Part shown: in pieces, positions 3,769-45,013 of the stretch
How positions within the stretch are numbered: the first letter of the stretch is position 1
Layout: every line of letters begins with the position of its first letter
Assembly (NCBI GenBank): GCA_964373675.1
Contig: CAYJVO010000002.1
Coordinates: 3,054 to 67,053 of the forward strand
Direction: 5' to 3'
Length of the DNA: 64,000 bases
Source: an uncultured Candidatus Saccharibacteria bacterium
GTDB taxonomy: Bacteria; Patescibacteriota; Minisyncoccia; UBA6257; WO2-44-18
Made by a program: the position numbers and the translations under genes
The notes under the pieces: generated by a model
The model's database searches: none
What the model was told of the DNA's origin: nothing
Seen by the model: the letters and a program-made list of their open reading frames with translations, nothing else

Positions 3769-5104
3769 CGATGCGCCGCCGCGCCTCGCCGTCCAGTTTT
3801 GGATTATCCAGATACAGGTTGATCAATTTCGGCAGATCTTCATCAGTTTTAGCCAAGCGCACTGCACCACTCTCGTAAATCGGTCGGTAATGGTTGAATT
3901 GGTATGCTAAGGCAAAACGATCAATATAGCCGATATTAATAATCGGTTTGTCAAAAATACAGGCCTCAATGGAAATGGTAGAAGCATAATTAATATTCAA
4001 ATCAGTATACTTTAAAGAATATTTCAAATTCAATAAATCGCCGTAATTCATTTCTACTTTCCCGTCGGTATATTTACCAGCCGGATCAATGCAAAGATCC
4101 GAAGTATTTAAAAATTCTTTGTAATGGTCGTAAACATCTAGCGGGTGGATACGAATGAATAAATTAACGTAAGGAATTATTTTATCTTCTCGCAAGCGGA
4201 TAAGATCGCGGATGTATTTTTTTTGAAATGGATACGCTTTAGTAACCGTGGTATGGAAAATTGTTTTATAAGCCGGATTTAGTCCTTTGGATTTTAAAAA
4301 CTCCTCCCTTGAGGGTATGTGATTCGAAATATCCGAATTCCATTCAAATAATTCTAAACCATCTTTGTTTTCGGATAATTCGGATGTATTAGAATTTTTT
4401 GAATCGCTTCTATCAAAGTAAGGATCAAAACGTGGCGTCCCGGAAACAAAAATCTTATCCGGCAGATAACGATGAATCTCAAGAACCTCTTTTTTAATAA
4501 TATCGTTCCAGGCAATCAAATAATCAGTTTTCCGGATATGTTTGGCATTGGTTGTCGGATTATCCCAAGAAGCGTTAATCGCAACAGTTGGAATCTTTAG
4601 CTTTTTAGCCGATAAAATAATTTCTGCCTCCCAGCTATCAAATCCCGGCGTTGCCGTAATCACCAAGGCTGGCTGATATTTCCCCGCTAATTCCAAAAAC
4701 CGCCGCGATCTTGGCAATAAGATTTCCTCCAGCCAAGTAAAAAAATCAGCGGTTAAAAACGGCGAAAAAGGCTTGCCGAAAAACCTCAAAATGCGCCGCT
4801 TCCAATTATTTTTATAATTCGGCCGCTTATACCAATGACGAATAGAGGCTAGATAATCAAACTCATTTACTAAGCTGATCCGTAAAAATTTAAAGAATTC
4901 CCAGAATTTCGGACTAGCCGCCCTCAGCTTTTCGTAAAAAACATTGGATGACTGCAGATAATTGCGCTGTTTCGCGATCTCGGCATCAATCATCGGAGTC
5001 AATACCACCGCACGGTATTTGCTTGAAAGGTATTCAATATATTTTGTCCGCAATAGGTCGCTGGTGGCAATATAATTGGGAAGCGCTAAAAAAACAGTTC
5101 GCAT
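3689..5104 (-). CDS. TagF-like CDP-glycerol glycerophosphotransferase family protein; carries an in-frame 89-bp repeat insertion
   Basis: 471 aa with a GTPRFD motif typical of the TagB/TagF family. An SD (GGAG) is supplied by the R1 repeat immediately upstream. Residues NSNTSELSENKDGLELFEWNSD are encoded by the MITE-like repeat at 4319-4407. Confidence 0.6.
   Translation of the reverse strand: MRTVFLALPNYIATSDLLRTKYIEYLSSKYRAVVLTPMIDAEIAKQRNYLQSSNVFYEKLRAASPKFWEFFKFLRISLVNEFDYLASIRHWYKRPNYKNNWKRRILRFFGKPFSPFLTADFFTWLEEILLPRSRRFLELAGKYQPALVITATPGFDSWEAEIILSAKKLKIPTVAINASWDNPTTNAKHIRKTDYLIAWNDIIKKEVLEIHRYLPDKIFVSGTPRFDPYFDRSDSKNSNTSELSENKDGLELFEWNSDISNHIPSREEFLKSKGLNPAYKTIFHTTVTKAYPFQKKYIRDLIRLREDKIIPYVNLFIRIHPLDVYDHYKEFLNTSDLCIDPAGKYTDGKVEMNYGDLLNLKYSLKYTDLNINYASTISIEACIFDKPIINIGYIDRFALAYQFNHYRPIYESGAVRLAKTDEDLPKLINLYLDNPKLDGEARRRIVASHVRYTDGLSYKRSVDFLAQITGV
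4319..4407. mobile_element. 89-bp MITE-like repeat, copy 1, in-frame inside the TagF-like CDS
   Basis: About 90% nucleotide identity to 10674-10762. The termini are inverted: GTGATTCGAAAT...TTTTTTGAATCGC. Confidence 0.65.
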
Positions 5105-5105
5105 A

Positions 5106-5215
5106 CTAAATTTTATTCTCCTTCGCCGAAAACCCCGGGCGGCCTACTCCGCCGAGTCTGACTCGGCTACGAAGGCTGGATAAGCCCGCGGGATGAAGGC
5201 GAGGAGCTTCATTTT
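5106..5215 (-). repeat. R1 structured repeat copy (supplies SD for the TagF-like gene and extends the dehydrogenase ORF)
   Basis: Reverse complement equals GAAGCTCCTCGCCTTCATCCCGCGGGCTTATCCAGCCTTCGTAGCCGAGTCAGACTCGGCGGAGTAGGCCGCCCGGGGTTTTCGGCGAAGGAGAATAAA, and ends 7 nt before the ATG at 5104. Confidence 0.7.
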
Positions 5216-6179
5216 CTAAATTCTTAATTGCCTTAACCACTAACTCGCTAATATAAACTTGAGTGCGTTCAGTGGCTTCCTCGGTAGAGCCGCCCAAATG
5301 CGGCAAAATGATCAAATTCTGATTTTTCCTGGCGTATTCCACCAACGGATTATTAATCAAATGGGCGCCGTCCGGGGATTCATCTGCCAACGTATCAATT
5401 CCCGCTCCGGCAATCCATCCTTTTTTTAAAGCCTCCAGCAATGCGACCTCATCAGTAATTTCCCCGCGGGCGGTGTTGATAAAAACGGCGGTTGGCTTCA
5501 TGAGTTTAAAATGTTCCTGTTTAAGCATTTTATAAGTAGAATCATTGTAAACAGCGTGAAGAGAAACAACATCGGATAATTTTAAAAGATTAGGCAGATC
5601 CGCCTTAACAGCTCCGTATTTTTTCATCTCGGCGGCGCCGACAAAAGGATCATAAGCCAACGCCCTCATTCCAAAGGCCGCGCTGTAGCCAGCCACCAGC
5701 CGTCCCAGCCGGCCAAAACCAATCAAACCGATAGTTTTTCCAGAAAGTTCCCGGCCGCTGTATTTAGCCCGATCCCATTCGCCTTTCTTAATCGCTTCAA
5801 ACCCCCAAGGAATTTTTCGCAACAGCGCCAAAATTAAAGCCATTGTTTCCTCAGCGGTAGAAGGAGTTTTGTGAAGAGCGGGAGCATCAGCTTTTATATT
5901 AACTATCTTAATGCCGCGCCGCCTGCACTCATCCAAATCCAAATACCTCAACTGGGTGGTGCGGGAACCGATCAGCTTTAATCTGCGCGCCCGATCCAAA
6001 ATAGGCTTATCAAACTTAACCTCCAAACCGGTCACTACCACATCGGCTTTTGACAAATTTCTAAAAAACTCCGCCCGCGATCCAAAATTAATCACCCGGC
6101 CGGATCGAGCAAGAATTTTTTTAGCTTTTGCGCTGAATTCTTTTTCCGCAATTAAAATATTAATTGATTTTTGAGCCAT
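5106..6179 (-). CDS. D-isomer-specific 2-hydroxyacid dehydrogenase (NAD-binding)
   Basis: GLIGFGRLGRLVAGY Rossmann motif and the typical family length. The last ~35 codons (RLHPAGLSSLRSRVRLGGVGRPGFSAKENKI) are read through the R1 repeat at 5106-5215, so the native C-terminus is probably earlier. Confidence 0.75.
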   Translation of the reverse strand: MAQKSINILIAEKEFSAKAKKILARSGRVINFGSRAEFFRNLSKADVVVTGLEVKFDKPILDRARRLKLIGSRTTQLRYLDLDECRRRGIKIVNIKADAPALHKTPSTAEETMALILALLRKIPWGFEAIKKGEWDRAKYSGRELSGKTIGLIGFGRLGRLVAGYSAAFGMRALAYDPFVGAAEMKKYGAVKADLPNLLKLSDVVSLHAVYNDSTYKMLKQEHFKLMKPTAVFINTARGEITDEVALLEALKKGWIAGAGIDTLADESPDGAHLINNPLVEYARKNQNLIILPHLGGSTEEATERTQVYISELVVKAIKNLENEAPRLHPAGLSSLRSRVRLGGVGRPGFSAKENKI

Positions 6180-6885
6180 ATTTTTTTATCAGCACCTCTG
6201 CCACCTCCCAATCAAAAGCGTCATTAATATCGTGAGCGGTCCAAGATTCAATGGGTAAACCAACTCGCTTTCCCACCTCAATCTTTTTTTCTTTTAAAAA
6301 AAGGTCTCTTCTAAAACAATAAACGCTGGCGAAAGCATATCGCTTGGGATCTGACTGTCTGGTTGGATGTTTATAATGAAGCTCCGGATTATCAAATTCC
6401 AAAAACCCATCGGCTGTTAAATGCCGCACGTGGTAGGGGTGAAAAGGTCTCGGCGCTTCAATGATGGTAATGCCCGAATCGGCTTTTTTATCACGGATAA
6501 GTTTAAATAATGCATCAATCTGTTCAGTAAGCACAAACGGCGAAGTAGGCTGGACCATAAAAACATATTCCGGACAATAATTTTCATTTTTTTCCAGCCA
6601 CTCAAGGGCGTGAAAAATAACCGGCGGCATCGGCGTGCCGTCTTCAGCTAATTCCGCCGGCCGCAAAAAAGGCGCTTCAGCGCCGTATCTTTTAGCGATC
6701 TCGGCGATTTTCTGATCGTCAGTGGTAATCACTACTCGGTCTACGAACCGGCTTTTTTTCAATGCTTTAATTGAATAAGCAATCAGCGGCTGGCCATTCA
6801 ATAATCTAATGTTCTTCCCCGGCAGTCCCTTAGAACCTCCTCTGGCAGGGACCAAACCCAAAAAACCAAATTTTTCCGATTGCAT
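6160..6885 (-). CDS. acylneuraminate (CMP-nonulosonic acid/CMP-Kdo) cytidylyltransferase family
   Basis: GLVPARGGSKGLPGKNIRLLNGQPLIAYSI is the N-terminal motif of CMP-NeuAc/Kdo synthetases. The longest ORF extends to 6930 as MCGFTW..., reading through an inverted-repeat cassette arm. Start at the Met at 6885 (MQSEKFG) is preferred. Confidence 0.7.
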   Translation of the reverse strand: MQSEKFGFLGLVPARGGSKGLPGKNIRLLNGQPLIAYSIKALKKSRFVDRVVITTDDQKIAEIAKRYGAEAPFLRPAELAEDGTPMPPVIFHALEWLEKNENYCPEYVFMVQPTSPFVLTEQIDALFKLIRDKKADSGITIIEAPRPFHPYHVRHLTADGFLEFDNPELHYKHPTRQSDPKRYAFASVYCFRRDLFLKEKKIEVGKRVGLPIESWTAHDINDAFDWEVAEVLIKKYGSKIN

Positions 6886-6921
6886 GGTAAAATTAATAAC
6901 ATAAAATAACAGCCAAGTAAA

Positions 6922-7134
6922 CCCGCACATAACTAGGACTGCAACAGCCTCGCTTCTCTGAAAAAAACGCCATCATTCACAATTTTTTATCAGCAAATCT
7001 TCGTAGCAATAGCAGTTTAACGCGTTAAACGCTTTGACGCGTCAAAGCACTATCCCATGGGATAGTGCTAGGAAATAACCCCACACAGCTTTGTCTCAGG
7101 CATTGAAGAAAGCGGAGTCCTAGTTATGTGCGGG
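6922..7134. mobile_element. inverted-repeat cassette, family A copy 1 (TIR CCCGCACATAACTAGGACT / AGTCCTAGTTATGTGCGGG)
   Basis: 19-bp perfect terminal inverted repeats at 6922-6940 and 7116-7134. The interior contains the perfect palindromes GCTTTGACGCGTCAAAGC and AGCACTATCCCATGGGATAGTGCT. The interior plus right arm is repeated at 45014-45174. Confidence 0.6.
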
Positions 7135-7206
7135 GCAAGCCCCGAGAAAATTAATAACTATATTAATAATTCCTAAATTAACTTAATAACCACTCAATAA
7201 CTACCA

Positions 7207-7297
7207 AACTATAACCTGTGCTATAACCTGTGCTATAAACTACATTATAAACTGTGCTATAAACTATACTATGCTATAAACTATACTATAAACTATT
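7207..7297. repeat. iteron-like tandem repeats (CTATAAAC/CTATAACCTGTG units, about 7 copies)
   Basis: Direct reading of 7207-7297 shows the tandem units. The block lies in a 710-bp non-coding region. Confidence 0.7.
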
Positions 7298-7303
7298 AAT
7301 AAA

Positions 7304-7343
7304 TCTTTCCGTTATAACCGCCATGGCGGTTATAACGGAAAGA
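7304..7343. repeat. 40-bp perfect palindrome TCTTTCCGTTATAACCGCC-ATGG-CGGTTATAACGGAAAGA
   Basis: Exact reverse-complement symmetry centred on CCATGG. Confidence 0.85.
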
Positions 7344-7346
7344 TTT

Positions 7347-7404
7347 CCGAAAATCCGAAAAAAATGAATCTCCAAAAAAATGAACCTCCGAAAATGAAAC
7401 TCCC
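7347..7404. repeat. tandem repeats of about 15 nt (AAAAATGAAYCTCC), 3-4 copies
   Basis: Direct reading of 7347-7404 shows the repeated unit. Confidence 0.6.
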
Positions 7405-7424
7405 CGGGCTTACCCTCGGCCTCG

Positions 7425-7608
7425 CTGTAAGCGGAGCCGAGTCTGACTCGGCGGAGCCCCACGCCTTTGGCAGGGCAATGCTCGCCCGTGGCAGGGCGTG
7501 ACGCCCGGGATATTCTTTGAATGAAGCTCCACGGCCTTATCTAGCCTTCGTAGCCGAGTCAGACTCGGCGGAGTAGGCCGCCCGGGGTTTTCGGCGAAGG
7601 AGAATAAA
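7425..7608 (+). repeat. R1 structured repeat family (one partial and one full copy) with GCCGAGTCWGACTCGGC hairpin
   Basis: CTTCGTAGCCGAGTCAGACTCGGCGGAGTAGGCCGCCCGGGGTTTTCGGCGAAGGAGAATAAA at 7546-7608 also occurs at 5106-5170 (reverse complement) and 56953-57024. A partial copy lies at 7425-7460. The local context is GC-rich. Confidence 0.7.
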
Positions 7609-7611
7609 CAA

Positions 7612-7640
7612 TAAAAAAAGCCGCGGTTTGATCGCGGCTG
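7612..7640 (-). terminator. rho-independent terminator of the sqd1-like gene
   Basis: On the minus strand, CAGCCGCG-ATCAAAC-CGCGGCTG is followed by TTTTTTT directly after the TAA stop. Confidence 0.7.
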
Positions 7641-8813
7641 TTATTTTTTCCTGTCCCAAGTAACTCTCGGCTGGATAATAGATATATCAATAAGGTGTTT
7701 GGCCTCCTTAATTTTCAAAAGCATGGAATTCACCAATTCCTCGGACAGCAATATCGGTTTTAACCCCAGTTTCAGCAAACTTTCGTTGGAAGGATTATAA
7801 TAGTGGTTCTCTTTTTCTACTCGGGGATTCTCTAATTTCTTAACAGCCACTGTCACTCCCAATTTGGCAGCTGAAGATTTTACTGTTTCTGCCAGCTGAC
7901 TGACGGAAAAAACTTCCGTAAATTGATTAAACACCCGAAACTCGCCTCTTTTAGCCGGATTTTCCACCGCTAACTGAACGCATTTTAAGGTATCACGAAT
8001 ATTCAGAAAACCCCGCTTCTGGCCGCCTAGACCGTAAACGGTCAGCGGTGTACCGACGACTGCTTGAACGCAAAATCTGTTTAATACTGTTCCAAAAACA
8101 TCGTCGTAATGAAAACTCGTCAAAAGATCGGGGTGAAGTTTGGTGCAATCGGTTTCAATTCCATAAACCACACCCTGATTAAGATCGGTAGCTCTCAACT
8201 TCCAAATACGGCAGGTAAATTCAATGTTGTGGCTGTCGTGAACCTTACTTAAATGATAAAACGAACCAGCACTTTTAGGATAAAGCATGCGGTCGTTACG
8301 TCCTTTATGATTAACATCTAACCAACCTTCTTCAATGTCTATATTGGGAGTGCCGTATTCGCCCATCGTCCCCAACTTCACTAAATGTGCGTCCGGAACA
8401 AATTTTTTCATCGCAAAAAGAACATTCAGGGTGCCGCTTATATTGTTTTCCTGCGTCAAAACGGCATTGCGTCGGCTGAACATTGAATAAGGCGCGGATG
8501 GCTGCTCGGCATAATGCACGATTGTCTGAGGACGAACTTCATCCATTATTTCAAAAAAGCGTCTTTCATTTTTCGCGATATCGGCAATAAAATATGAAAT
8601 TTTACGGCCGGCAACCTGCTCCCAAACATTTATCCGTTTCTGCAATGGAAGTGTAGACCAAAGAGGCATAGAACCAAACTCCGCTTCCCAAACTCTTTTT
8701 GCCATGCTATCAATGATTGCTACTTCGTAGCCAAGCGCGGAAAAATGCATTGCCGTCGGCCAGCCCAAATAGCCATCGCCGCCGAGAACGAGAATTTTAT
8801 GCGCTTCCATCAA
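7641..8813 (-). CDS. sqdB: UDP-sulfoquinovose synthase (SQD1/SqdB/Agl3 family)
   Basis: Near-collinear identity to SQD1 motifs: LGGDGYLGW, HYAEQPSAPYSM, VKLGTMGEYGTPNIDIEEGW, YPKSAGSFYHLSKVHDSHNI, ATDLNQGVVYG, LNRFCVQA and GEFRVFNQFTE. The protein is 390 aa. Confidence 0.85.
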   Translation of the reverse strand: MMEAHKILVLGGDGYLGWPTAMHFSALGYEVAIIDSMAKRVWEAEFGSMPLWSTLPLQKRINVWEQVAGRKISYFIADIAKNERRFFEIMDEVRPQTIVHYAEQPSAPYSMFSRRNAVLTQENNISGTLNVLFAMKKFVPDAHLVKLGTMGEYGTPNIDIEEGWLDVNHKGRNDRMLYPKSAGSFYHLSKVHDSHNIEFTCRIWKLRATDLNQGVVYGIETDCTKLHPDLLTSFHYDDVFGTVLNRFCVQAVVGTPLTVYGLGGQKRGFLNIRDTLKCVQLAVENPAKRGEFRVFNQFTEVFSVSQLAETVKSSAAKLGVTVAVKKLENPRVEKENHYYNPSNESLLKLGLKPILLSEELVNSMLLKIKEAKHLIDISIIQPRVTWDRKK

Positions 8814-8865: not shown

Positions 8866-8894
8866 AAAACAAAGGAGCGTCAATATTGACGCTC
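8866..8894 (-). terminator. rho-independent terminator downstream of the neuC-like gene
   Basis: On the minus strand, GAGCGTCAA-TAT-TGACGCTC is followed by CTTTGTTTTT. Confidence 0.6.
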
Positions 8895-19139: not shown

Positions 19140-20239
19140 GAATTTAATGATAGCATTTTATTGTAAATAACGTTGTATAGCTGGGCAGTTTTCCCCCAAC
19201 TCATTGAACGCGCAAAAGAAATCGAATTTTTCGACATATCAAACCTCAAATCGGGATTAGATAATATTTTCTCCATAGCGGCTGAAGCGCTCTTTGGGTT
19301 CTGCGGACTTACCAAAATGCCGTTCTTCCCGTCCCTAACCGCGTCTTCCGCGCTAGTTTCTTTAGTAGTAATCACCGGCAATCCGGCGGCCGCCGCCTCC
19401 AAGAAAACCAGTCCAAAACCTTCAATGTCTTTGTTAACATCCTGCGGCATTAATATAAAAAGCTCGGCGTTTTTATAAACCGATATCAATTCTTCCTCCG
19501 ATAAATTTTCTAAAAAAACAACCCGATCTTGATACTTGATACTTGATACTTGCCGCTGAAGCGCTTCGTACTCCGGCCCTTTCCCGACAATCACGTATTT
19601 CAAACCTGGAAACTTCTTGGCTACTTCCGCGAATGCCGCGATTGAATATTCGTATCCTTTTCGTTGCTTTAATGTTCCAACGCTTAATATATAAGGTTTC
19701 AATTTCTGGACTTCCGATGTCCCAATATTGACGTCAATGGTTTGGACATCGGAAGTCCCTGATATTGATTCGAATTTTGTAAAATCAACGCCGTGATTAA
19801 TAACAGAGATTTCCAAATCCGGCAAAAATTTCTGGATTTCTCTTTTGGTATTATTACTAACCGCTATTACCCTAAACGCTCTTTTATACGCCCATTTCAT
19901 AATCGGCCGTCTCCACCAGCTGTAAAACGGCTTAACCGCCCCGGTGCCAATGCCGGTTATAATTAGTTTTTTTCTTGATCCTAAAGATACTATGGCCGCA
20001 ATCACGCCATATGGCCAGCCATCCAAGGCATGAATAATATCGCAATATTTAAAGGCTCGACGAATACAGAAATAGAAAAAAGGTAATTGCCAACATTTTT
20101 TCGGCAAACCGCTATCATGAGTTAAAACTTCATATTGAAAATCTGGAACAATCTTTTCAAGAGCGCTGATTAGCGAATGATAAAACCGCCCGGCGCCAGT
20201 TTTATCGCTTAAATCATGATTAAGATAACAAATTTTCAT
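19136..20239 (-). CDS. GT4-family glycosyltransferase
   Basis: YVIVGKGPEYEAL...FGLVFLEAAAAGLPVITT is the GT4 C-domain signature. A heptamer-repeat-encoded loop (QVSSIKYQ) is present. Confidence 0.8.
   Translation of the reverse strand: MKICYLNHDLSDKTGAGRFYHSLISALEKIVPDFQYEVLTHDSGLPKKCWQLPFFYFCIRRAFKYCDIIHALDGWPYGVIAAIVSLGSRKKLIITGIGTGAVKPFYSWWRRPIMKWAYKRAFRVIAVSNNTKREIQKFLPDLEISVINHGVDFTKFESISGTSDVQTIDVNIGTSEVQKLKPYILSVGTLKQRKGYEYSIAAFAEVAKKFPGLKYVIVGKGPEYEALQRQVSSIKYQDRVVFLENLSEEELISVYKNAELFILMPQDVNKDIEGFGLVFLEAAAAGLPVITTKETSAEDAVRDGKNGILVSPQNPKSASAAMEKILSNPDLRFDMSKNSISFARSMSWGKTAQLYNVIYNKMLSLNS
19528..19552. repeat. heptamer tandem array (CTTGATA x3.5) inside GT4 CDS
   Basis: CTTGATACTTGATACTTGATACTTG. 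It is in-frame and encodes QVSSIKYQ. Confidence 0.8.
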
Positions 20240-21933: not shown

Positions 21934-22042
21934 CCCGCACATAACTAAGACTGCAGCAACGCTGCAATCCTATTTTAACTTTTTAACTTTTTTCACCATA
22001 ATATATCTAATTTTTAAAATAGTCTTAGTTATGTATGGGATG
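21931..22042. mobile_element. inverted-repeat cassette, family A copy 2 (CATCCCGCACATAACTAAGACT ... AGTCTTAGTTATGTATGGGATG)
   Basis: 22-bp terminal inverted repeats with a 68-bp AT-rich interior that has promoter-like hexamers. Both termini present an outward ATG. The left one is the MTase start codon. Confidence 0.65.
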
Positions 22043-24765: not shown

Positions 24766-25836
24766 TTATACGAAAACTTTTATTAGTTTTTCTATGAGGG
24801 TGGGTAAATTATGCCTCTCAATGATTAAGGTCCTCAGGCGTTTACCTATTTGTTTACGCTCTTCTTCGTTCAATATTATTAAATTTAAAATTTTATGCGC
24901 TAAATCAATCGGGTCCTGCGACTTAAACATTAATAAACGATCAAGATCGTGCGGGAAAATTTCTTTAAACGTCTCATTAGTTACTAATACCGGCAATTCG
25001 CAAGCCATCGCCTCTAAAGTAGTCTTATCAAAACTGCCAGTGCGCGTCAGGTTTACAAAAAGGTCGTGTTCATTGTAGATAATAACAGTCTGATAATTGG
25101 GGACCTTCGGACGAAATTCCACTAATGCCGGGAGATTCAATTCTTGTATTAAATTTTTAATTTTTTCATAATATTCTTTTTCATCCGGTTTGCCCGGCGT
25201 CGGCTCGCCAACGATCGTCAAACTAACATCTGACTTTGACTGTTGAATTATTGCCAGAGCGCGCAATAAAGTCTCTAAATCCTTTACCGGCGCAATCCTC
25301 CCTAAAAAAAGAACTTTGAACTTTGAACTTTGAACTTTGAACTTGAGCGGCTCAAACCGCTCTGTGTCTATTCCCTGCTGCAAAATCGTTAATTTTTTAC
25401 TTCTCAGCGGATAAGCCAGCCGAGTTGAGGTAACGATTTGATCTGCGAGCCAAGCGGCAAGCCGTAGTTTTAAATTAGCAAGATAATGCGCATACCACAG
25501 AATTATTTTTTTACCCCACAACTTCCAGAAAACTCCGCCTAAAATAATATATTCTGGATTCATATGCACAAAAACAGCGTCGTAATCATTCCTCAATCGC
25601 CAAATATATTTATAAAATCTCAAAATATAAATTAACCGTCGCATCCAATTCCTAATTCCTTCTTTACCCAACGAATACACCTTTACACTCTCCGGTAATT
25701 CCGCTCGGCCACGATAAAGACAAATCACCGAGATTTGTTTAACTCGCTGTGCCAATTCCTCAATCCAACGGTGATAGATGCCTAAAACATCATCATCTTT
25801 GTCTACTTTTTGGGTGATGAATAACAATCTTGCCAT
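24766..25836 (-). CDS. GT4-family glycosyltransferase
   Basis: FLGRIAPVKDLETL...NLPALVEFRPKV. A heptamer-encoded loop (KFKVQSSKFK) is present. Confidence 0.75.
   Translation of the reverse strand: MARLLFITQKVDKDDDVLGIYHRWIEELAQRVKQISVICLYRGRAELPESVKVYSLGKEGIRNWMRRLIYILRFYKYIWRLRNDYDAVFVHMNPEYIILGGVFWKLWGKKIILWYAHYLANLKLRLAAWLADQIVTSTRLAYPLRSKKLTILQQGIDTERFEPLKFKVQSSKFKVLFLGRIAPVKDLETLLRALAIIQQSKSDVSLTIVGEPTPGKPDEKEYYEKIKNLIQELNLPALVEFRPKVPNYQTVIIYNEHDLFVNLTRTGSFDKTTLEAMACELPVLVTNETFKEIFPHDLDRLLMFKSQDPIDLAHKILNLIILNEEERKQIGKRLRTLIIERHNLPTLIEKLIKVFV
25311..25346. repeat. heptamer tandem array (GAACTTT x5) inside GT4 CDS
   Basis: GAACTTTGAACTTTGAACTTTGAACTTTGAACTTGA. It is in-frame. Confidence 0.85.
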
Positions 25837-26975
25837 GATTTTTTAATTGCATCTAAATACTGCTGCTTAGTTGGCCAATTTTTTAAAAGGTTATTCTGCC
25901 CATCAATAACTCTCCTTCGTTCCGCGGGATTGGCTATTAACTCTTCTAAAACCTCGATGAGCCGCTTTTTGTCGCCTACCGGCACCACTCGGCCAATAGC
26001 CGCACCGACATCGGTCATAACCACCGGCAGACCGGCCGCCGCCGCCTCAACCGCCGCCAGACCGTAACCTTCGTAGTTGGAGGTCAATAAAAATAAATCC
26101 GCGGTCTTGTAATAAGAAATCAGATCATCCGTCCAGGGCTCAATAATTGCGTTATTTTGCAATTTTAAATTTTCAATTTTAAATTTTAAATTTTGGCGTT
26201 CCGGACCATCGCCAACGATCAATAACAAAGGATTTCCGACGCTTGATGCCTGACGCTTGACGCGATTAAACGCCTCGATTGCTAATCCGATATTTTTCTC
26301 TCGCGACAATCGAGAGGCCACGAGAATAATAAAATTGTGGCTCGGATATTTTCTGTGAAGATCGATCTTGATTGGAGATTTTTTTATTTTTTTAACGTCA
26401 ACAAAAATTGGCCGCACTTCAATTTTGGACTCGGGATAATCAATTTGCGAAATAACGGATTTTTTAATCCGATCACTAACTACCCGCAGGCGGTCGGCCT
26501 TTTTAATTAAAAACTTCGCCAGCAAAACCCGGATTTTATTCTTTAATGACTCCTTCGCGAAATACGGGCTTAAAAAATCCGTATGCGCTTGAAGCTCTAA
26601 CGGAATTTTGAATTTCTTTTTCAGAGGATAGCCCACTAAGCCGGTCTCAAAAGGATCCTGCGCCGTTACTAGATAATCCGAATGCTTCAAGCTTTTATCC
26701 GAATTATCCGAACTCAAAATATATTTGGCGATTTTGTAGGCATCCCAAAAATAAAAAGGCTTGAGGCGCGTATTGGTGGAATAAATCCAAGCGTTCGCAG
26801 TTATTGCTTTTTTGTTCGGGGCATTCGGATAGCGGTTCGTATTATTCGGATTATCTTTTGTGTAAACTATGATGTGCAGCTCCTCGACAAGTTGAGCGTA
26901 CTCAATCATCCTCTGCCGAACAGCCGAGTTTTCTTTAAAAATATTTGAATCTGCTGATAACATTAAAAGCCGCAT
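25803..26975 (-). CDS. GT4-family glycosyltransferase
   Basis: LLLIVGDGPERQNL...GYGLAAVEAAAAGLPVVMTDVGA is the GT4 signature. Confidence 0.75.
   Translation of the reverse strand: MRLLMLSADSNIFKENSAVRQRMIEYAQLVEELHIIVYTKDNPNNTNRYPNAPNKKAITANAWIYSTNTRLKPFYFWDAYKIAKYILSSDNSDKSLKHSDYLVTAQDPFETGLVGYPLKKKFKIPLELQAHTDFLSPYFAKESLKNKIRVLLAKFLIKKADRLRVVSDRIKKSVISQIDYPESKIEVRPIFVDVKKIKKSPIKIDLHRKYPSHNFIILVASRLSREKNIGLAIEAFNRVKRQASSVGNPLLLIVGDGPERQNLKFKIENLKLQNNAIIEPWTDDLISYYKTADLFLLTSNYEGYGLAAVEAAAAGLPVVMTDVGAAIGRVVPVGDKKRLIEVLEELIANPAERRRVIDGQNNLLKNWPTKQQYLDAIKKSWQDCYSSPKK
26161..26194. repeat. heptamer tandem array (AATTTTA x5) inside GT4 CDS
   Basis: AATTTTAAATTTTCAATTTTAAATTTTAAATTTTG. It encodes LKFKIENLKLQN. 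Confidence 0.85.
26240..26264. repeat. degenerate heptamer array (GCTTGAT/GCCTGAC/GCTTGAC) inside GT4 CDS
   Basis: GCTTGATGCCTGACGCTTGACGCG. Confidence 0.6.
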
Positions 26976-26981: not shown

Positions 26982-27003
26982 AAGCCTAGCAATTGCTAGG
27001 CTT
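26982..27003 (-). terminator. hairpin terminator downstream of 27028-28128 gene
   Basis: AAGCCTAGCAATTGCTAGGCTT is followed by TTTAAAT on the minus strand. Confidence 0.5.
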
Positions 27004-28179: not shown

Positions 28180-30477
28180 TCAATAATTGAGTGTGTTTAA
28201 AATTTCTACTAGCTTTGTCATACAATTTCCTATTGAAAATTGTTTGGCCTTTTCTTTGGCATTTCTTACTATCTTTTCTCTAAAATTCTTATCACTGCCA
28301 ATTTTTCTAATAGCGGCCAGAATTTGTTCTTTGCGGTTGGGCTCAACCAAAATCCCTTCTTTGCCGTCATCAATGATTTCGGCTAAATTGCCGATCTTGG
28401 TAGTTATAACCGGCAGGCCGGCATTCATTGCTTCCACCACCTGAAATGAAAAACTCTCAAAAGAAGTATTTAAGACAAAAACCGTCACGCTATGCAATAA
28501 TTCCAATAATTTTTCTCGTGGAACGGCATCCAAGAAATCAACTTTATTTTTGACACCTGACACCTGACACTTGACACCGAGCGCTTCACGCTCTGGCCCG
28601 TCTCCCACAATCACCAATTTCCAGTCCGGCAAATCCCGCATTAAGTCAATCAAAACATCGAACCCCTTCCACGGCACCAGACGGCCAGCCGATAGAATGG
28701 TTTTGAGTTGATGAGTTGATGAGTTGATGAGTTTTTTGGATGGCGGATTATCTAGCTGTATGCCGTTGTAGATGACTTTCACTTTTTCCGGATTTTTTAT
28801 CCAGCCGCCGACTAGTTTTTGGAAGTACTGGCTGGGAGTGATAATTATCTTGGCCTGATTGGCAACAAACTTTTGCACGCTGCGCAATAATTCTGTTCGC
28901 AATCCATATCTTTTTTGCTGAAACTCATCAATAGAATCTTTAACCCCAAAACGCTGGGCCGCCTGCTCCCAAGCATAATCGCCGGCAACTCTCATAATAA
29001 AGGGCTTTCTCAAAACCTTGGCTGCCAGCATTGCCGGCAATCCTACGCTGACTGGATCCTGCGAATAAACAATGTCATTCCTCCGCGCCCTTAACAGACA
29101 TTTGAAAAAATAAATCAAATGGCGAATGCCAATCGGCCAGCGCCTGACAACCCGAAAGGGCAGAACCGCGATGCTCATTCCGTGCTTCGGCAATTCTTTT
29201 TCCAAAAGAGCGGTGTAAGTTGCCGGACCGCCGATCTCCGGAGGATAAATTCCGGTAGCTACTAAAAGTCGTGTAATTGGTAATTTGTAATTGGTAATTA
29301 GAGCTTGGAAAATATTTTTAATTTTTGATGCAATTTTGTCCCAGGAATAATTTTCTAAAACTAGCTTTCTTCCATTTTCAGCTATTTTGTTTCTTAGAAT
29401 ATCATTTTCCATCAAACCTTTTATCTTTCCAGCCACATCCTTAAAGTCATCAACTTGACAAAAAAGGCCCGTCTCGCCATCCTTTAAGAAATCAGAAATT
29501 CCCCCAACTGGAGTTCCGATAATTGGCAAGCCGGCCGCCATGGCTTCCAAAAAAGAATTGCCTAATCCTTCGGAACGAGATGGTCTTACAAAAATATCTG
29601 CCCCAGCCAAATAATTCGGTATCTTGTCCGGATCAACGTGGCCCAGAAACTCAATTTTGTCGGCTACTCCTAAATCCGAGGCTAGCTTTTTTAACTTTTC
29701 TTCATCTGGTCCAGAACCTAAAACCTGACACCTGATACTTGACACCTGATACTTCTTTAATTCTGCTACAGTTCGAATTAACGTATCAATGCCATTTTTA
29801 TGAACTAACCGCGAAGTTGTTATAAGGGTATAGGGTTTAGCGTTTAGGGTTTTAGATTTTTCACTATACGCCATACGCTTAACGCTAAACGCTTCAACAT
29901 TCACGCCATTCGGCACTACTTCAATCGGACACCTGGCTCCGTGCCGTCGCGCAAAATCCATCAGATAATTGCTGATTACTTGAATATAATCGGCCTTTTT
30001 GAATAAAAACCGCCACAAAGGATAAAAAATCCCCACCCGCCTCAAAATATGCGATTCGCTATCCCCCTCCTGCAGCGTAAGAAGAAGCGGGATGGACGGA
30101 TGCCGCAACTTGAAAAAAAGCGCGGCCATGCCGCCATAAGAAGCCATTATTGCCCAAATTAACTTAAAGGACTTTTTTTTGTGTTCTTGCTCTGCCGTTC
30201 GCCAAGCGCGAAAAGCGTACAAAATTTTTTTAAAAAAGTGGCCGTAATAATCGTGCTGGTTGAGGCCGCCGCTCCCGATCCTAATTACCTCAACATTGCT
30301 TATCTTTTCCCGCGAAAGCCAATGCCGGTCAAATTTGTAGGTAAAACAAAAAAAATTATCATCCGGCAGCCGATCAGTAATTTCTTTAACTGCCACTTCC
30401 GCGCCTCCCACGAAAGGAAAATAAGCGGTGCTGAAAATAACGATTTTAGGACTCATAAATCTTTTCTGTTTCTTCAA
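28180..30477 (-). CDS. tandem double GT4 glycosyltransferase (two GT-B units, 765 aa)
   Basis: Two GT4 signatures: VLGSGPDEEKL...GLGNSFLEAMAAGLPIIGT and VIVGDGPEREAL...SFQVVEAMNAGLPVITT. The gene contains five heptamer/octamer arrays in loop positions. Confidence 0.75.
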   Translation of the reverse strand: MKKQKRFMSPKIVIFSTAYFPFVGGAEVAVKEITDRLPDDNFFCFTYKFDRHWLSREKISNVEVIRIGSGGLNQHDYYGHFFKKILYAFRAWRTAEQEHKKKSFKLIWAIMASYGGMAALFFKLRHPSIPLLLTLQEGDSESHILRRVGIFYPLWRFLFKKADYIQVISNYLMDFARRHGARCPIEVVPNGVNVEAFSVKRMAYSEKSKTLNAKPYTLITTSRLVHKNGIDTLIRTVAELKKYQVSSIRCQVLGSGPDEEKLKKLASDLGVADKIEFLGHVDPDKIPNYLAGADIFVRPSRSEGLGNSFLEAMAAGLPIIGTPVGGISDFLKDGETGLFCQVDDFKDVAGKIKGLMENDILRNKIAENGRKLVLENYSWDKIASKIKNIFQALITNYKLPITRLLVATGIYPPEIGGPATYTALLEKELPKHGMSIAVLPFRVVRRWPIGIRHLIYFFKCLLRARRNDIVYSQDPVSVGLPAMLAAKVLRKPFIMRVAGDYAWEQAAQRFGVKDSIDEFQQKRYGLRTELLRSVQKFVANQAKIIITPSQYFQKLVGGWIKNPEKVKVIYNGIQLDNPPSKKLINSSTHQLKTILSAGRLVPWKGFDVLIDLMRDLPDWKLVIVGDGPEREALGVKCQVSGVKNKVDFLDAVPREKLLELLHSVTVFVLNTSFESFSFQVVEAMNAGLPVITTKIGNLAEIIDDGKEGILVEPNRKEQILAAIRKIGSDKNFREKIVRNAKEKAKQFSIGNCMTKLVEILNTLNY
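28551..28578. repeat. heptamer tandem array (TGACACC x4) inside double-GT4 CDS
   Basis: TGACACCTGACACCTGACACTTGACACC. It encodes GVKCQVSGVK. Confidence 0.85.
28704..28733. repeat. octamer tandem array (TGAGTTGA x3.5) inside double-GT4 CDS
   Basis: TGAGTTGATGAGTTGATGAGTTGATGAGTT. It encodes LINSSTHQLK. Confidence 0.8.
29274..29301. repeat. heptamer tandem array (TAATTGG x4) inside double-GT4 CDS
   Basis: TAATTGGTAATTTGTAATTGGTAATTAG. Confidence 0.8.
29724..29754. repeat. heptamer tandem array (CCTGAYA x4.4) inside double-GT4 CDS
   Basis: CCTGACACCTGATACTTGACACCTGATACTT. It encodes KYQVSSIRCQV. Confidence 0.85.
29832..29858. repeat. heptamer tandem array (AGGGTTT x4) inside double-GT4 CDS
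   Basis: AGGGTTTAGCGTTTAGGGTTTTAGATT. Confidence 0.7.
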
Positions 30478-37083: not shown

Positions 37084-37165
37084 ATCCGTATCAGGTATCA
37101 AGTGTCAAGAATTGAAATTTGCTAATGTTATAAAAAAATGTAAACCTGATACTTGAAACATGAAA
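37084..37165. promoter_or_regulatory. divergent intergenic region: inverted heptamer arrays (GTATCAGGTATCAAGTGTCAAG / CCTGATACTTGAAACATGAAACC) flanking a 33-bp AT-rich core
   Basis: The two arrays are in opposite orientation around AATTGAAATTTGCTAATGTTATAAAAAAATGTA, which carries TTGAAA and TATAAA hexamers, between the regulator and galU. Confidence 0.5.
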
Positions 37166-42888: not shown

Positions 42889-43371
42889 ATGCAATTATTG
42901 TTTAACAATTCCCTTGGCGCCAAACTAACCCCTGATGATGTCATCGGCGAAATAATCAAATTCATGAACGCTGATCCTCATCGCTGTTATAAAGTCATCA
43001 TCGGAACTGATTCGGAGCGTTCCGCTGACAACACCGCCGATTTTGTAACGGCAATTGTCATTCACCGCTTAGGAAATGGCGGGCGATACTTTTGGCGACG
43101 GATTGAACCAAAAACCAAATATCACACCTTAAGGGGCCGCATCACTGGAGAAGTTTTGATGTCTTTGGACATTGCCCGGGAATTACTTCAGGCTATGAAA
43201 AATTACCAAGTTCCGAAATTTGATTTTGAAATTCATGTGGATGTTGGGGAAAACGGCGCGACTAAAACAATGATTCAGGAACTAGTCGGCATGATTCGGG
43301 CTAATAATTTTGAAGCCAAAACCAAACCCGAAAGCTACGCCGCCAGCAAAGTCGCGGACCGCCATATTTAG
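42889..43371 (+). CDS. RNase H-like fold protein (YkuK/DUF458-like)
   Basis: 160 aa. The KVIIGTDSE strand with a catalytic-type Asp resembles the DUF458 family. Assignment is from memory of the family motif. Confidence 0.35.
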   Translation: MQLLFNNSLGAKLTPDDVIGEIIKFMNADPHRCYKVIIGTDSERSADNTADFVTAIVIHRLGNGGRYFWRRIEPKTKYHTLRGRITGEVLMSLDIARELLQAMKNYQVPKFDFEIHVDVGENGATKTMIQELVGMIRANNFEAKTKPESYAASKVADRHI

Positions 43372-43398
43372 TTTCAAGTTTCAGGTGTCAGGTATCAA
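43369..43398. repeat. heptamer array (reverse orientation; AGTTTCAGGTGTCAGGTATCAAG) 5' of four-helix-bundle gene
   Basis: Reverse complement is CTTGATACCTGACACCTGAAACT. Confidence 0.75.
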
Positions 43399-43402
43399 GT
43401 AA

Positions 43403-43759
43403 ATGGAAAAGGGTTATAAAAAATTGATGGCCTACCGCGAAGGTCACAAATTAGTTCTGCAAACTTATCTTGCAACTAGTAAGTTTCCTAAGTCAGAATT
43501 ATTCGGACTTGTTTCTCAAATGCGTAGGGCGGCGGTGTCTGTGGTGGCAAACATCTTAGAAGGCCAGGCCAGAATAAGTAAAAAGGAATTTAAAAATTTC
43601 ATCTCTATCACTAATGGATCCCTTGTTGAATTGGAATATTATCTTGAACTATCACGAGAATTGAATTACATTAACAGGAACGATTATGAGGAAGTAGAAA
43701 AGCAAAGAGCTCTTACTGGCTCTTTATTGGGTGGATTACTTCGTTACCTTAAATCTTAA
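43403..43759 (+). CDS. four-helix-bundle protein (23S rRNA intervening-sequence protein family; Avd-like)
   Basis: 118 aa. YREGHKLVLQTY...LVSQMRRAAVSVVANILEG...NGSLVELEYYLELS matches the TIGR02436-type four-helix-bundle family. Confidence 0.7.
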   Translation: MEKGYKKLMAYREGHKLVLQTYLATSKFPKSELFGLVSQMRRAAVSVVANILEGQARISKKEFKNFISITNGSLVELEYYLELSRELNYINRNDYEEVEKQRALTGSLLGGLLRYLKS

Positions 43760-43830
43760 CTTGACACCTGACACCTGATACCTGATACCTGACACATAAC
43801 ACCTGACACCTGATACATGATACATGACAC
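43759..43830. repeat. heptamer array, about 10 units (CTTGACA CCTGACA CCTGATA ... CATGACA), 3' of four-helix-bundle gene and overlapping start of next ORF
   Basis: Direct reading of 43759-43830. This is the longest array in the window, in the opposite orientation to 43369-43398. Confidence 0.85.
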
Positions 43831-44937: not shown

Positions 44938-45013
44938 GATTTTCTCCTGTAAAAAGCCGGCTGGTATAATATCACATCTACAAAATAATGCAAGCCCCCA
45001 CGCCTAATAAGCG

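What the first reader, a model, noticed from the sequence alone, without database searches (positions are those of the whole stretch)
7200..7410. Iteron-like tandem repeats plus a 40-bp perfect palindrome in a 710-bp non-coding gap
There are about 7 tandem copies of CTATAAAC/CTATAACCTGTG at 7207-7297. They are followed at once by the perfect 40-bp palindrome TCTTTCCGTTATAACCGCCATGGCGGTTATAACGGAAAGA at 7304-7343, and then by three or four AAAAATGAAYCTCC repeats. Iterons, an AT-rich stretch and a large palindrome are the signature of a replication origin or partition site, for example of an integrated plasmid or phage. It could also be a complex regulatory region. It sits between family A cassette copy 1 and R1 copies, so the whole 6922-7610 segment looks like a composite mobile insertion within the glycan island.
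Basis: inference. Interest (0 to 1): 0.6.

Follow-up and report, generated by a model that had tools for sequence, protein, structure and literature searches.

The report
Repeat-built spacer, not a replication origin
The tandem repeats and the big palindrome are real, but they lie in a roughly 700-base non-coding insertion made of small repeat elements and copying-slippage products inside a sugar-coat operon of an uncultured groundwater-type bacterium, and nothing marks it as a plasmid or phage origin.

Summary
There are seven 12-nt units at 7207-7297. The perfect palindrome is 46 bp (7301-7346), not 40. Three AAAATGAANCTCC copies lie at 7361-7403.

The origin, partition or prophage reading is not supported:
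- The window is chromosomal DNA of a Parcubacteria-type CPR (Candidate Phyla Radiation) bacterium.
- No rep, par, integrase, transposase or phage gene was found.
- There is no DnaA box or parS, and GC skew does not switch.
- There is no plasmid or phage similarity.

Four relatives with the same gene order have only 26-85 bp between the epimerase and cytidylyltransferase genes. Here the gap is 755 bp, so about 700 bp is a lineage-specific insertion. It is a stack of repeats:
- a terminator;
- two R1 foldback elements; the "AAAATGAANCTCC" repeats are R1's duplicated 5' end;
- the palindrome;
- a degenerate AT-rich 12-nt minisatellite;
- the family A element, which abuts a candidate promoter next to the ATG.

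A palindrome with matching arms occurs at least 8 times in one Saccharibacteria genome, so it looks like a REP-like dispersed hairpin element. A regulatory or phase-variation role remains possible but untested.

Seen in passing: dispersed (TGAYACN)n heptamer arrays and perfect 7-8-nt repeats inside glycosyltransferase genes. These may be more interesting than the finding itself.

The parts
7641..8813 (-). Upstream gene: NAD-dependent epimerase/dehydratase
   Evidence: Pfam PF01370. It has the same position in the operon as in relatives L053, L088 and L091.
7608..7648 (-). Intrinsic terminator T1 of the epimerase gene (stem 7619-7639, T-run on the minus strand)
   Evidence: Terminator scan, inverted repeat I6. 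Relatives also have a hairpin plus T-run right after this gene.
7518..7608 (+). R1b: a full copy of the R1 foldback element (GAATGAAGCTCC...GCCGAGTCAGACTCGGC...GGCGAAGGAGAATAAA)
   Evidence: Alignment to the R1 copy at 5100-5215 scores 151 and is nearly identical over about 90 nt.
7390..7500 (+). R1a: a second, degenerate R1 copy in tandem with R1b. Its 5' end is the third 'AAAATGAAACTCC' repeat.
   Evidence: Local alignment to R1 (score 63) with shared ends and central palindrome; direct repeats D3 and D10.
7346..7389 (+). Slippage duplicates of the R1 5' end (AAAAAAATGAATCTCC, AAAAAAATGAACCTCC) and TCCGAAAA x2
   Evidence: TRF period 16 and period 8; families D2 and D9; identity with the R1 terminus GAAAATGAAGCTCC.
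7301..7346 (.). 46-bp perfect palindrome holding two GTTATAAC 8-mers (7311-7318 and 7329-7336) around CGCCATGGCG
   Evidence: The arms AATC(N)TTTCCGTTATAAC match an 8-copy palindrome family in Saccharibacteria MAG CAYLWL01.
7207..7297 (+). Degenerate 12-nt minisatellite: 7 units of CTATAAMC plus 4-5 variable nt. On the minus strand it reads YRYAG-KTTATAG.
   Evidence: Neighbouring units are the most alike (units 1 and 2 identical; units 5-7 near-identical). Nested periods of 12, 17 and 24 nt are present.
7144..7206 (+). AT-rich flank with decayed WAATAAC motifs (TTAATAAC, TTAATAAT, TTAATAAC, TCAATAAC) that grade into the array
   Evidence: Read directly from the sequence; TRF period 11 at 7181-7201; 24-27% GC.
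6922..7143 (+). Family A element: perfect 19-bp terminal inverted repeats (6922-6940 and 7116-7134), three consecutive perfect palindromes (7015-7069), terminal GGGGCAAGCCCC hairpin
   Evidence: Other copies lie at 45018-45183, 21934-22039 and 62124 onwards.
6886..6921 (-). Candidate core promoter for a leaderless mRNA: TTTACT (6921-6916), 17 nt, TATTAA (6898-6893), 7 nt, then ATG at 6885
   Evidence: Inference from the sequence only. It is a weak consensus match and there is no Shine-Dalgarno sequence before the ATG. It was not detected by the promoter scan.
6160..6885 (-). Downstream gene: acylneuraminate/CMP-sugar cytidylyltransferase, first of four co-oriented genes
   Evidence: Pfam PF02348; homologues named CMP-legionaminic or CMP-NeuAc synthase.

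Best explanation
The segment 7200-7410 is the AT-rich middle of a roughly 700-bp lineage-specific non-coding insertion. The insertion splits an otherwise tight junction between the epimerase and CMP-sugar cytidylyltransferase genes in a surface-glycan operon on the chromosome of a Parcubacteria-type CPR bacterium. It is not a replicon origin or partition site.

It was built in two ways. First, small non-autonomous repeat elements were inserted: two R1 foldbacks, the family A element, and a hairpin-forming palindrome of a REP-like dispersed family. Second, replication slippage produced the degenerate 12-nt minisatellite and the duplicated R1 ends, which are the 'AAAATGAANCTCC' repeats.

The anatomy, the insertion status, the repeat-family membership of the flanks and the absence of replicon features are shown. 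The rest is inferred. As DNA or RNA the region is a string of strong hairpins: T1, the R1 foldbacks and the 46-bp palindrome. These would stop or process read-through from the upstream genes. The downstream four-gene block would then be expressed from a short promoter abutting family A next to the ATG, or from -10-like hexamers in the AT-rich array. Any effect of the array on expression would come through changes in its length.

The confidence of 0.55 is for this whole statement. The negative part alone, that this is not an origin or partition site, I put at about 0.9.
For: 1. Insertion status. Four relatives with the same gene order have gaps of 85, 54 and 26 bp containing only a terminator and a short AT-rich stretch. 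Here the gap is 755 bp.

2. Flanks are dispersed repeats. The family A inverted repeat has 6 matches in the window against 0.01 expected. The R1 central palindrome occurs at three places, 5151, 7436 and 7553. The R1 copy at 5100-5215 is an insertion relative to the orthologue.

3. The three 14-16-nt repeats equal the R1 5' terminus.

4. The array has the marks of slippage. Neighbouring units are the most alike, periods of 12, 17 and 24 nt are nested, one spacing is 17 nt, and it grades into decayed motifs on its left.

5. Palindrome family. Eight copies with an invariant 36-bp core sit in intergenic DNA of Saccharibacteria MAG CAYLWL01. Their arms match ours beyond the searched pattern, and the outer 5 nt covary symmetrically.

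6. Replicon features are absent.

7. No Rfam family matches, and there is no credible ORF in the gap.
Against: - The 7144-7346 module is unique in the 64-kb window, so its own mobility or copy number in this genome is unknown. The rest of the source genome could not be retrieved.
- A perfect 46/46 palindrome implies very recent origin, homogenisation or selection. Pure neutral junk would decay, as one family A palindrome has in the 45-kb copy.
- The TATAA core is invariant in all 7 units, and GTTATAAC in the palindrome resembles GCTATAAC in the units. This could reflect a DNA-binding protein.
- The link to the Saccharibacteria family rests on about 8 extra matching bases per arm. My rough estimate is that such a match has a chance probability of 0.001-0.01.
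- The promoter assignment is a weak consensus match, and the promoter scan found no excess of sites.
Confidence: 0.55

Rival explanations
1. Expression switch. The 12-nt array and the adjacent long hairpin form a length-variable regulatory leader or upstream region. Slipped-strand changes in unit number, together with RNase III processing of the 21-23-bp duplex, would tune or phase-vary expression of the CMP-sugar genes. The model is the hmw1A repeat tract and 5'-UTR hairpin of Haemophilus influenzae.
For: - The region lies upstream of surface-glycan genes, behind a terminator.
- The same island carries perfect 7-8-nt tandem repeats inside four glycosyltransferase ORFs, which must frameshift on gain or loss of a unit.
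- The hairpin is a perfect duplex of more than 20 bp.
- The known precedent is described in PMC12721329.
Against: - The array is degenerate (73-80% identity, only two identical adjacent units), which lowers slippage rates.
- It sits 320-410 nt from the ATG, with the 222-bp family A element in between.
- No population data could be obtained.
- No promoter was detected that would put it in a transcript.
Confidence: 0.2
2. Protein-binding array. The GCTATAAC/CTATAAAC units and the two GTTATAAC sites in the palindrome are operators for one DNA-binding protein, such as a transcription factor or nucleoid protein, that polymerises along the array.
For: - The TATAA core is invariant in 7 of 7 units, while the 4-5-nt linkers vary.
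- The palindrome carries the related 8-mer twice.
- The TTTCCGTTATAAC arm is shared with a distant CPR genome while the palindrome centre differs.
- Short contiguous repeats are known to act as operators or centromeres for ribbon-helix-helix proteins (PMC9499535).
Against: - No candidate regulator gene is adjacent. The only helix-turn-helix proteins found are 29-42 kb away.
- The motif cluster occurs once in the window.
- The spacing is irregular (one 17-nt step), and the 12-nt period is off the helical repeat.
- In the Saccharibacteria genome all 36 core positions are identical in 8 copies. That looks like a recently spread repeat rather than a set of operators.
Confidence: 0.12
3. One reading: an iteron-type replication origin or partition site of an integrated plasmid or phage.
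For: Direct repeats, an AT-rich stretch (24-27% GC) and a large palindrome occur together. From memory, not tested here: seven 12-bp repeats resemble the tubC centromere of pBtoxis in number and size.
Against: No Rep, Par, TubZ, integrase or phage genes were found. There are no DnaA boxes, no parS, no GC-skew switch and no plasmid or phage similarity. The flanks are syntenic chromosomal operon genes.
Confidence: 0.03
4. Guide-RNA array (TIGR-like or CRISPR-like) or another small-RNA gene.
For: TIGR arrays occur in CPR bacteria and are hard to recognise (PMC12045711). The region folds much better than shuffles, z = -7.1.
Against: TIGR units are 36 nt, with two alternating 8-12-nt repeats and 9-nt spacers, next to a Nop-domain Tas gene. 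Here the unit is 12 nt with 4-5 nearly identical linker bases, and there is no such gene. No Rfam family matches. The fold z-score is driven by the palindrome alone.
Confidence: 0.02
5. Assembly artefact, such as a fold-back chimera or a mis-assembled repeat.
For: The source is a metagenome-assembled contig. Tandem repeats can be collapsed or expanded by assemblers.
Against: Both flanks continue in the order seen in four relatives. The palindrome is short and internal, and its flanks are not inverted duplicates of each other. A related palindrome exists in an independent assembly.
Confidence: 0.03

Closest known systems
REP/BIME-type repetitive extragenic palindromes
   Same: A short hairpin-forming palindrome in intergenic DNA. 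The related family has at least 8 dispersed copies with an identical core in one genome, mostly downstream of gene ends, with symmetric (compensatory) variation in the outer stem.
   Different: It is perfect and longer, 46 bp with a self-complementary centre. It lacks the 5' GTAG motif (recalled from memory, not tested). No RAYT (REP-associated tyrosine transposase) was seen. Only one copy lies in this 64-kb window, and copy number in this genome is unknown.
MITE-like miniature foldback elements, for example Rickettsia palindromic elements and Neisseria Correia elements (recalled from memory)
   Same: R1 (about 100 nt) and family A (about 220 nt) have terminal inverted repeats, several copies, no coding capacity and insertions next to or inside genes. 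The R1 copy at 5100-5215 is read through in frame and adds 36 aa to a dehydrogenase, as Rickettsia palindromic elements do.
   Different: No target-site duplication was identified. No transposase partner is known. The sequences have no match in plasmid, phage, viral or JGI metagenome collections.
Promoter or 5'-UTR simple-sequence-repeat switches, for example H. influenzae hmw1A (ATCTTTC)n with an RNase III hairpin (PMC12721329)
   Same: A tandem repeat tract and a long hairpin lie upstream of a surface-structure gene. Other frameshift-prone repeats occur in the same gene island.
   Different: The units are 12 nt and diverged. The tract is more than 300 nt from the start codon. Transcription of the tract and length polymorphism are not shown.
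Plasmid or phage iteron origins and repeat-type centromeres (pSC101/R6K/P1 iterons, recalled from memory; pSM19035 heptad parS, PMC9499535)
   Same: A cluster of short direct repeats next to AT-rich DNA and an inverted repeat.
   Different: There is no initiator or partition gene, no DnaA boxes and no replicon context. The unit size and phasing are atypical, and the repeats are degenerate rather than contiguous identical sites.

Membership tests
Iteron-type plasmid/phage replication origin | Several direct repeats of about 17-22 bp with regular, helically phased spacing | tested here: not met
   Units are 12 nt with 73-80% matches; spacing is 12, 12, 12, 12, 17, 12.
Iteron-type plasmid/phage replication origin | Adjacent gene for the initiator (Rep) protein | tested here: not met
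   Pfam scans of all ORFs of at least 120 aa, plus a subset of the smaller ORFs, found no Rep, primase or helicase-loader.
Iteron-type plasmid/phage replication origin | AT-rich unwinding region beside the repeats | tested here: met
   24-27% GC at 7150-7300. This feature is non-specific.
Iteron-type plasmid/phage replication origin | DnaA boxes, and location on a plasmid or prophage | tested here: not met
   There is no TTATCCACA-like site (1 mismatch allowed) in 6886-7640. There is no plasmid or phage similarity. The flanks are chromosomal operon genes.
Chromosomal oriC | GC-skew sign change with dnaA/dnaN and clustered DnaA boxes | tested here: not met
   Cumulative GC skew falls almost monotonically over 64 kb; 31 of 32 2-kb bins are negative. 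There is no dnaA or dnaN gene, and the 23 DnaA-box-like matches are scattered.
Partition site (parS/ParB, parC/ParR, tubC/TubR, heptad parS/omega) | Cognate centromere sequence plus an adjacent NTPase and centromere-binding-protein genes | tested here: not met
   No parS with up to 3 mismatches. No ParA, ParM, TubZ or ribbon-helix-helix gene was found.
REP-like dispersed palindrome | Hairpin-forming extragenic palindrome | tested here: met
   A 46-bp perfect palindrome in a non-coding gap, z = -9.6.
REP-like dispersed palindrome | Many dispersed copies in the same genome | tested here: inconclusive
   One copy in the window. Eight copies of a related version occur in another CPR genome. The rest of the source genome was unavailable.
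REP-like dispersed palindrome | Associated RAYT/IS200-type transposase and a conserved 5' tetranucleotide | not testable with these tools
There is no GTAG at the arm ends.
Simple-sequence contingency locus | Long, near-identical tandem tract | tested here: inconclusive
   Only units 1-2 are identical and units 5-7 near-identical; overall matches are 73-80%.
Simple-sequence contingency locus | Tract-length polymorphism within the population | not testable with these tools
The closest homologues in the database are 77% (cytidylyltransferase) and 86% (RecA) identical.
TIGR guide-RNA array | 36-nt units of two alternating repeats with 9-nt spacers, next to a Nop-domain Tas gene (PMC12045711) | tested here: not met
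   The unit is 12 nt with 4-5-nt near-identical linkers. There is no Nop-domain gene.
Intrinsic terminator (for the palindrome) | Stable hairpin immediately followed by a U-tract | tested here: not met
   The terminator scan did not call it. Only UUU follows the stem on either strand. The real terminators at 7619-7639, 8875-8894 and 26982-27003 have T-runs.

The most novel reading that the evidence does not exclude
The palindrome (TTTCCGTTATAAC...GTTATAACGGAAA) would be a cis-element shared across CPR classes and recognised by an unknown protein or nuclease. Together with the 12-nt array it would form a length-variable hairpin switch for surface-glycan genes. This would be one part of a wider repeat-based variation system in this episymbiont-type bacterium. 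The other parts would be the perfect 7-8-nt repeats in four glycosyltransferase genes and the dispersed (TGAYACN)n heptamer arrays, which also co-occur with the palindrome family in the Saccharibacteria genome. My literature searches found no report of phase-variable loci in Patescibacteria.
Probability: 0.12. Interest if true: 0.65.

Novelty: new member of a known kind. Interest (0 to 1): 0.28.

Why it matters
As an origin or partition site it does not hold up, so the finding does not reveal an integrated replicon.

Its value is descriptive. A streamlined CPR genome tolerates a 755-bp repeat-laden gap inside a glycan operon. At least three kinds of small repeat element (R1, family A and a REP-like palindrome) are active or recently active there. 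None of them matched anything in the plasmid, phage, viral or JGI metagenome collections searched.

If the array and hairpin, or the in-gene 7-8-nt repeats, prove length-variable in the population, that would be direct evidence for contingency-type surface variation in CPR bacteria. My searches of the held literature found no such report.

Tried and rejected
- Retrieving the source contig or genome. Exact-protein look-ups failed. The genome scan did not return the source. Cluster look-up gave no names.
- Metagenome scans for the palindrome family and for the family A core: 0 hits each. Viral scans for the same patterns: 0 hits.
- Viral scan for three phased YTATAAMC motifs: 50 hits. The three multi-match loci I inspected (L032, L043, L045) are unrelated AT-rich or coding 12-nt repeats. 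One temperate-phage contig (L032) has 9 units of CTATAACCTACA in an 800-bp gap, but its neighbours are uninformative and the match is largely forced by the pattern.
- Derivation of the array from the ancestral promoter seen in L053 (TATAGTTTATAAT). Not significant: 90 of 300 shuffles score as well.
- Derivation of the palindrome centre from the L091 terminator, which shares CCGCCATGGCGG. Marginal only: 3 of 300 shuffles.
- A 12-bp direct repeat, AAAATTAATAAC (6889 and 7147), as a target-site duplication. Rejected: it does not abut the inverted repeats, and by my estimate it is expected by chance in AT-rich DNA.
- Bacillaceae hits to CGTTATAACC-N8-GGTTATAACG. This is a conserved hairpin upstream of a small kinase-like gene, with no regulator identified and no Rfam match. 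I treated it as unrelated.
- Rfam at permissive threshold: only sub-threshold noise.
- Promoter scan: one site against 2.0 expected.
- Literature search for GTTATAAC: nothing relevant.
- TIGR array: features not met.
- dif/Xer site for the Saccharibacteria palindrome. Rejected: the arms would leave a 2-nt spacer, and there are multiple copies.

Full report
**1. What is there**

Reading 6600-8000 and running TRF and the repeat finder confirm all three features.

- **Array.** A 12-nt array lies at 7207-7297, with seven units CTATAAMC plus 4-5 variable bases and spacing of 12, 12, 12, 12, 17, 12. Seven of the eight window matches to the unit lie here, against 2.35 expected.
- **Palindrome.** It is perfect over 46 bp (7301-7346), not 40, and is the longest in the window. 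It folds at -23 kcal/mol as single-stranded DNA, z = -9.6.
- **Third repeat.** Three AAAATGAANCTCC copies lie at 7361-7403.

The array-plus-palindrome module occurs only once in the window.

**2. Context**

Both flanking genes are on the minus strand. The upstream gene is an epimerase/dehydratase (7641-8813). The downstream gene is a CMP-sugar cytidylyltransferase. Its real start is at 6885, because the longer ORF start at 6930 lies inside a repeat. The gap is therefore 6886-7640, or 755 bp. It holds no credible ORF and no Rfam family.

The window encodes a large glycan-synthesis island plus ClpB, RecA, FtsK, a cysteine desulfurase-type aminotransferase, D-Ala-D-Ala ligase, glycogen synthase and two tRNAs. 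The closest named RecA homologues (about 82-83% identical) are from Candidatus Harrisonbacteria and Giovannonibacteria. The organism is therefore a Parcubacteria-type CPR bacterium.

**3. Test of the origin, partition or prophage reading**

- No Rep, Par, integrase, transposase or phage gene was found among the ORFs of at least 120 aa or the small ORFs that were scanned.
- GC skew is negative in 31 of 32 2-kb bins and its cumulative curve falls almost monotonically.
- The 23 DnaA-box-like matches in the window are scattered, and none is in the gap.
- There is no parS.
- The finding region and the whole gap have no significant similarity to plasmid or phage records.
- Twelve-nucleotide, irregularly spaced, 73-80% identical units are unlike classical iterons.

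This reading is not supported.

**4. The gap is a lineage-specific insertion**

Homologues of the cytidylyltransferase led to four independent contigs with the same operon order: TylF, Epimerase_2, Epimerase, CTP_transf_3, 2-Hacid_dh, Glyphos_transf, Polysacc_deac_1, and a reversed radical SAM gene. The epimerase-to-cytidylyltransferase gap in these contigs is 85 bp (L053), 54 bp (L088-L090) and 26 bp (L091). Each gap holds only a terminator hairpin and a short AT-rich stretch.

None of those loci contains the family A inverted repeat, R1, the palindrome arm or the 12-mer array. About 700 bp has therefore been added in this lineage. No closer relative exists in the searched databases: the next cytidylyltransferase is 77% identical and the next RecA 86%.

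**5. Anatomy of the insertion, read in the direction of transcription (minus strand)**

1. **Terminator T1** (stem 7639-7619 plus a T-run).
2. **Two tandem R1 elements.** R1 is a foldback of about 100 nt: GAAAATGAAGCTCC ... GCCGAGTCWGACTCGGC ... GGCGAAGGAGAATAAA. The copy R1b (7518-7608) is nearly identical to the copy at 5100-5215. R1a (7390 to about 7500) is degenerate.
3. **The 'AAAATGAANCTCC' repeats.** These are the 5' terminus of R1. One is the true end of R1a. Two more (7358-7373 and 7374-7389) are solo tandem duplicates, merging into TCCGAAAA x2. This reassigns the third part of the observation to the R1 family.
4. **The 46-bp palindrome.**
5. **The 12-nt array.** Neighbouring units are the most alike, periods of 12, 17 and 24 nt are nested, and the left side decays into WAATAAC motifs. 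This is the pattern expected from repeated slippage.
6. **Family A** (6922-7143). It has perfect 19-bp terminal inverted repeats and three consecutive perfect palindromes. Further copies lie at about 45018-45183, 21934-22039 and 62124.
7. **The last 36 nt before the ATG.** These can be read as TTTACT, 17 nt, TATTAA, 7 nt, ATG, which is a candidate promoter for a leaderless mRNA. This is inference only, and the promoter scan gives no support.

**6. The palindrome has relatives**

A genome-collection scan for CGTTATAAC-N10-GTTATAACG did not return the source genome. It did return eight copies in one Candidatus Saccharibacteria MAG, CAYLWL01. All eight have the same 36-bp core, TTTCCGTTATAACATAATATTATGTTATAACGGAAA.

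Outside the searched pattern they share TTTC/GAAA, and mostly AATC(N)/(N)GATT, with our palindrome. The central 10 nt differ. The outer five positions vary between copies in a symmetric, compensatory way: AATCA/TGATT, AATCT/AGATT, TCTCT/AGAGA, GATCG/CGATC.

The copies are intergenic and mostly lie just downstream of gene ends. Three sit about 95 nt upstream of a shared TTTGCTATAAT promoter cassette. This behaviour resembles REP-like dispersed hairpin elements.

The same family pattern had no match in the JGI metagenome or viral collections. Other intergenic perfect palindromes in the window (8875-8894 and 26982-27003) are ordinary terminators with T-runs. The 46-bp palindrome has only a UUU tail, so it is not a canonical terminator.

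**7. Origin hypotheses that did not hold**

The resemblance of the array unit to the predicted promoter of L053 (TATAGTTTATAAT) is not significant: 90 of 300 shuffles score as well. The identity of the palindrome centre CCGCCATGGCGG with the L091 terminator is marginal: 3 of 300 shuffles.

**8. Function**

What can be said is limited. T1 should end upstream transcription, as the equivalent hairpins presumably do in relatives. The downstream four genes therefore need a promoter in or next to the gap.

The string of strong hairpins would block or process read-through. The 21-23-bp perfect duplex is of the size that RNase III cleaves. This invites comparison with the hmw1A repeat-plus-hairpin leader of Haemophilus influenzae (PMC12721329).

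The array is degenerate, lies 320-410 nt from the ATG behind family A, and has no demonstrated transcript or polymorphism. A protein-binding reading is possible, because the TATAA core is invariant and GTTATAAC occurs twice in the palindrome. It lacks a candidate protein, however.

TIGR arrays, which occur in CPR genomes, have a quite different unit structure and need a Nop-domain gene (PMC12045711).

**9. Verdict**

The origin, partition or prophage interpretation is not supported. The 'composite insertion' remark is right in the sense of a lineage-specific stack of small repeats and slippage products. Novelty is modest: new members of known kinds of element, in a poorly studied phylum.

**10. 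Seen in passing**

*In-gene repeats.* The island contains perfect 7-8-nt tandem repeats inside four glycosyltransferase ORFs.

*Heptamer arrays.* A dispersed family of (TGAYACN)n arrays occurs at nine loci, against 0.17 expected. These arrays:
- coincide with small insertions in a split phosphoglucomutase gene;
- flank, in inverted orientation, a 23S-rRNA-IVP/bAvd-like four-helix-bundle gene;
- recur three times in the loci of the Saccharibacteria MAG that carries the palindrome family, and not in the four syntenic relatives;
- occur as direct or inverted arrays in 28 viral contigs, in several cases immediately upstream of a start codon.

In arrangement they recall the heptad operator/centromere arrays of pSM19035 (PMC9499535). 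These observations are unexplained and may deserve their own follow-up.

Noticed in passing
window 19528-19552, 25311-25344, 26154-26194, 28704-28733: Perfect or near-perfect tandem repeats of 7-8 nt (CTTGATA x3.6, GAACTTT x4.9, AATTTTA/C x4.9, TGAGTTGA x3.8) lie mid-gene in four GT4 glycosyltransferase ORFs. Gain or loss of one unit must shift the reading frame, so these are candidate phase-variable (contingency) genes in a CPR bacterium. The relatives' loci have no perfect 7- or 8-nt tandem repeat.
   Followed up: partly
window 19530-19550, 28551-28578, 29726-29753, 37087-37107, 43370-43397, 43762-43831, 45519-45546, 46001-46028, 46350-46377: A dispersed family of heptamer tandem arrays (TGAYACN), 3-10 units each, occurs at nine loci against 0.17 expected. 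Most lie inside ORFs, where 21 nt adds 7 aa. In the phosphoglucomutase gene they coincide with small insertions relative to solved homologues. The units contain -35-like TTGACA/TTGATA and resemble the WATCACW heptads of pSM19035.
   Followed up: partly
L065 4641-4668, L067 997-1024, L076 5610-5637; viral loci L092-L119: The same heptamer arrays occur three times in 60 kb of the Saccharibacteria MAG, which was fetched only for its palindrome copies, and not at all in 60 kb of the four syntenic relatives. They also occur in 28 viral contigs of 26-67% GC, in several cases immediately upstream of a start codon or as inverted arrays around a short spacer. Co-occurrence with the palindrome family in two distant CPR genomes is unexplained.
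   Followed up: partly
window 43361-43831: A 118-aa 23S_rRNA_IVP / bAvd-like four-helix-bundle gene (43403-43759) is flanked by inverted heptamer arrays: (..GGTGTCAGGTATCA) upstream and (TGACACC)x10 downstream. It sits between two RNase H-like genes. A homologous gene in relative L053 (4839-5222) is likewise flanked by inverted short repeats (AGCTTTTTAG / CTAAAAAGCT) and is an insertion in the same glycan operon. This looks like a small insertion cassette bounded by stem-forming repeats.
   Followed up: partly
window 5100-5215: An R1 foldback element is inserted at the 3' end of the 2-hydroxyacid dehydrogenase gene. The ORF reads through it, adding 36 aa relative to the orthologue. Its outer end supplies an AAGGAG Shine-Dalgarno sequence 13 nt before the next gene's ATG.
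   Followed up: yes
window 6922-7143, 21934-22039, 45018-45183, 62124-62165: Family A repeats. The 19-bp terminal repeat CCCRCACATAACTARGACT abuts the start codons of two genes (21942 and 62132), and its internal ATG is in frame with the gene in all three cases. The 21934-22039 copy is just two inverted repeats around 68 bp between two genes, an arrangement that resembles an invertible promoter. The long copies carry three consecutive perfect palindromes.
   Followed up: partly
window 44990-45012 and 45175-45197: A 23-nt direct repeat, GCAAGCCCCCACGCCTAATAAGC, flanks the 45-kb family A copy. A hairpin CCCCCACGCCTAATAAG...CTTTTATTAGGTGTGGGGG follows. The left copy supplies a TTGCAT -35-like hexamer for the minus-strand gene starting at 44937.
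   Followed up: no
window 45227-46614: The phosphoglucomutase/phosphomannomutase gene is split into two ORFs, domain I (46159-46614) and domains II-IV (45227-46162), overlapping by 4 nt. This could be a frameshift, a pseudogene or a sequencing error. The gene also carries three heptamer arrays.
   Followed up: partly
L059, L063, L070, L071, L072, L080, L081, L085 (Bacillaceae genomes): A conserved hairpin AAGGCGTTATAACC-N8-GGTTATAACGCCTT lies just after a terminator and upstream of a 190-216-aa kinase-like gene in eight Bacillaceae species. It has no Rfam match. It shares the CGTTATAACC arms with the window palindrome, probably by chance.
   Followed up: partly
L032 9711-9810 (IMG/VR UViG 2896308868): A temperate-phage contig with integrase and anti-repressor genes has nine 12-nt units (A/C)YTATAACCTAC in an 800-bp non-coding gap. 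The unit is close to the window's CTATAAACTACA. Its function is unknown and the match is largely imposed by the search pattern.
   Followed up: partly
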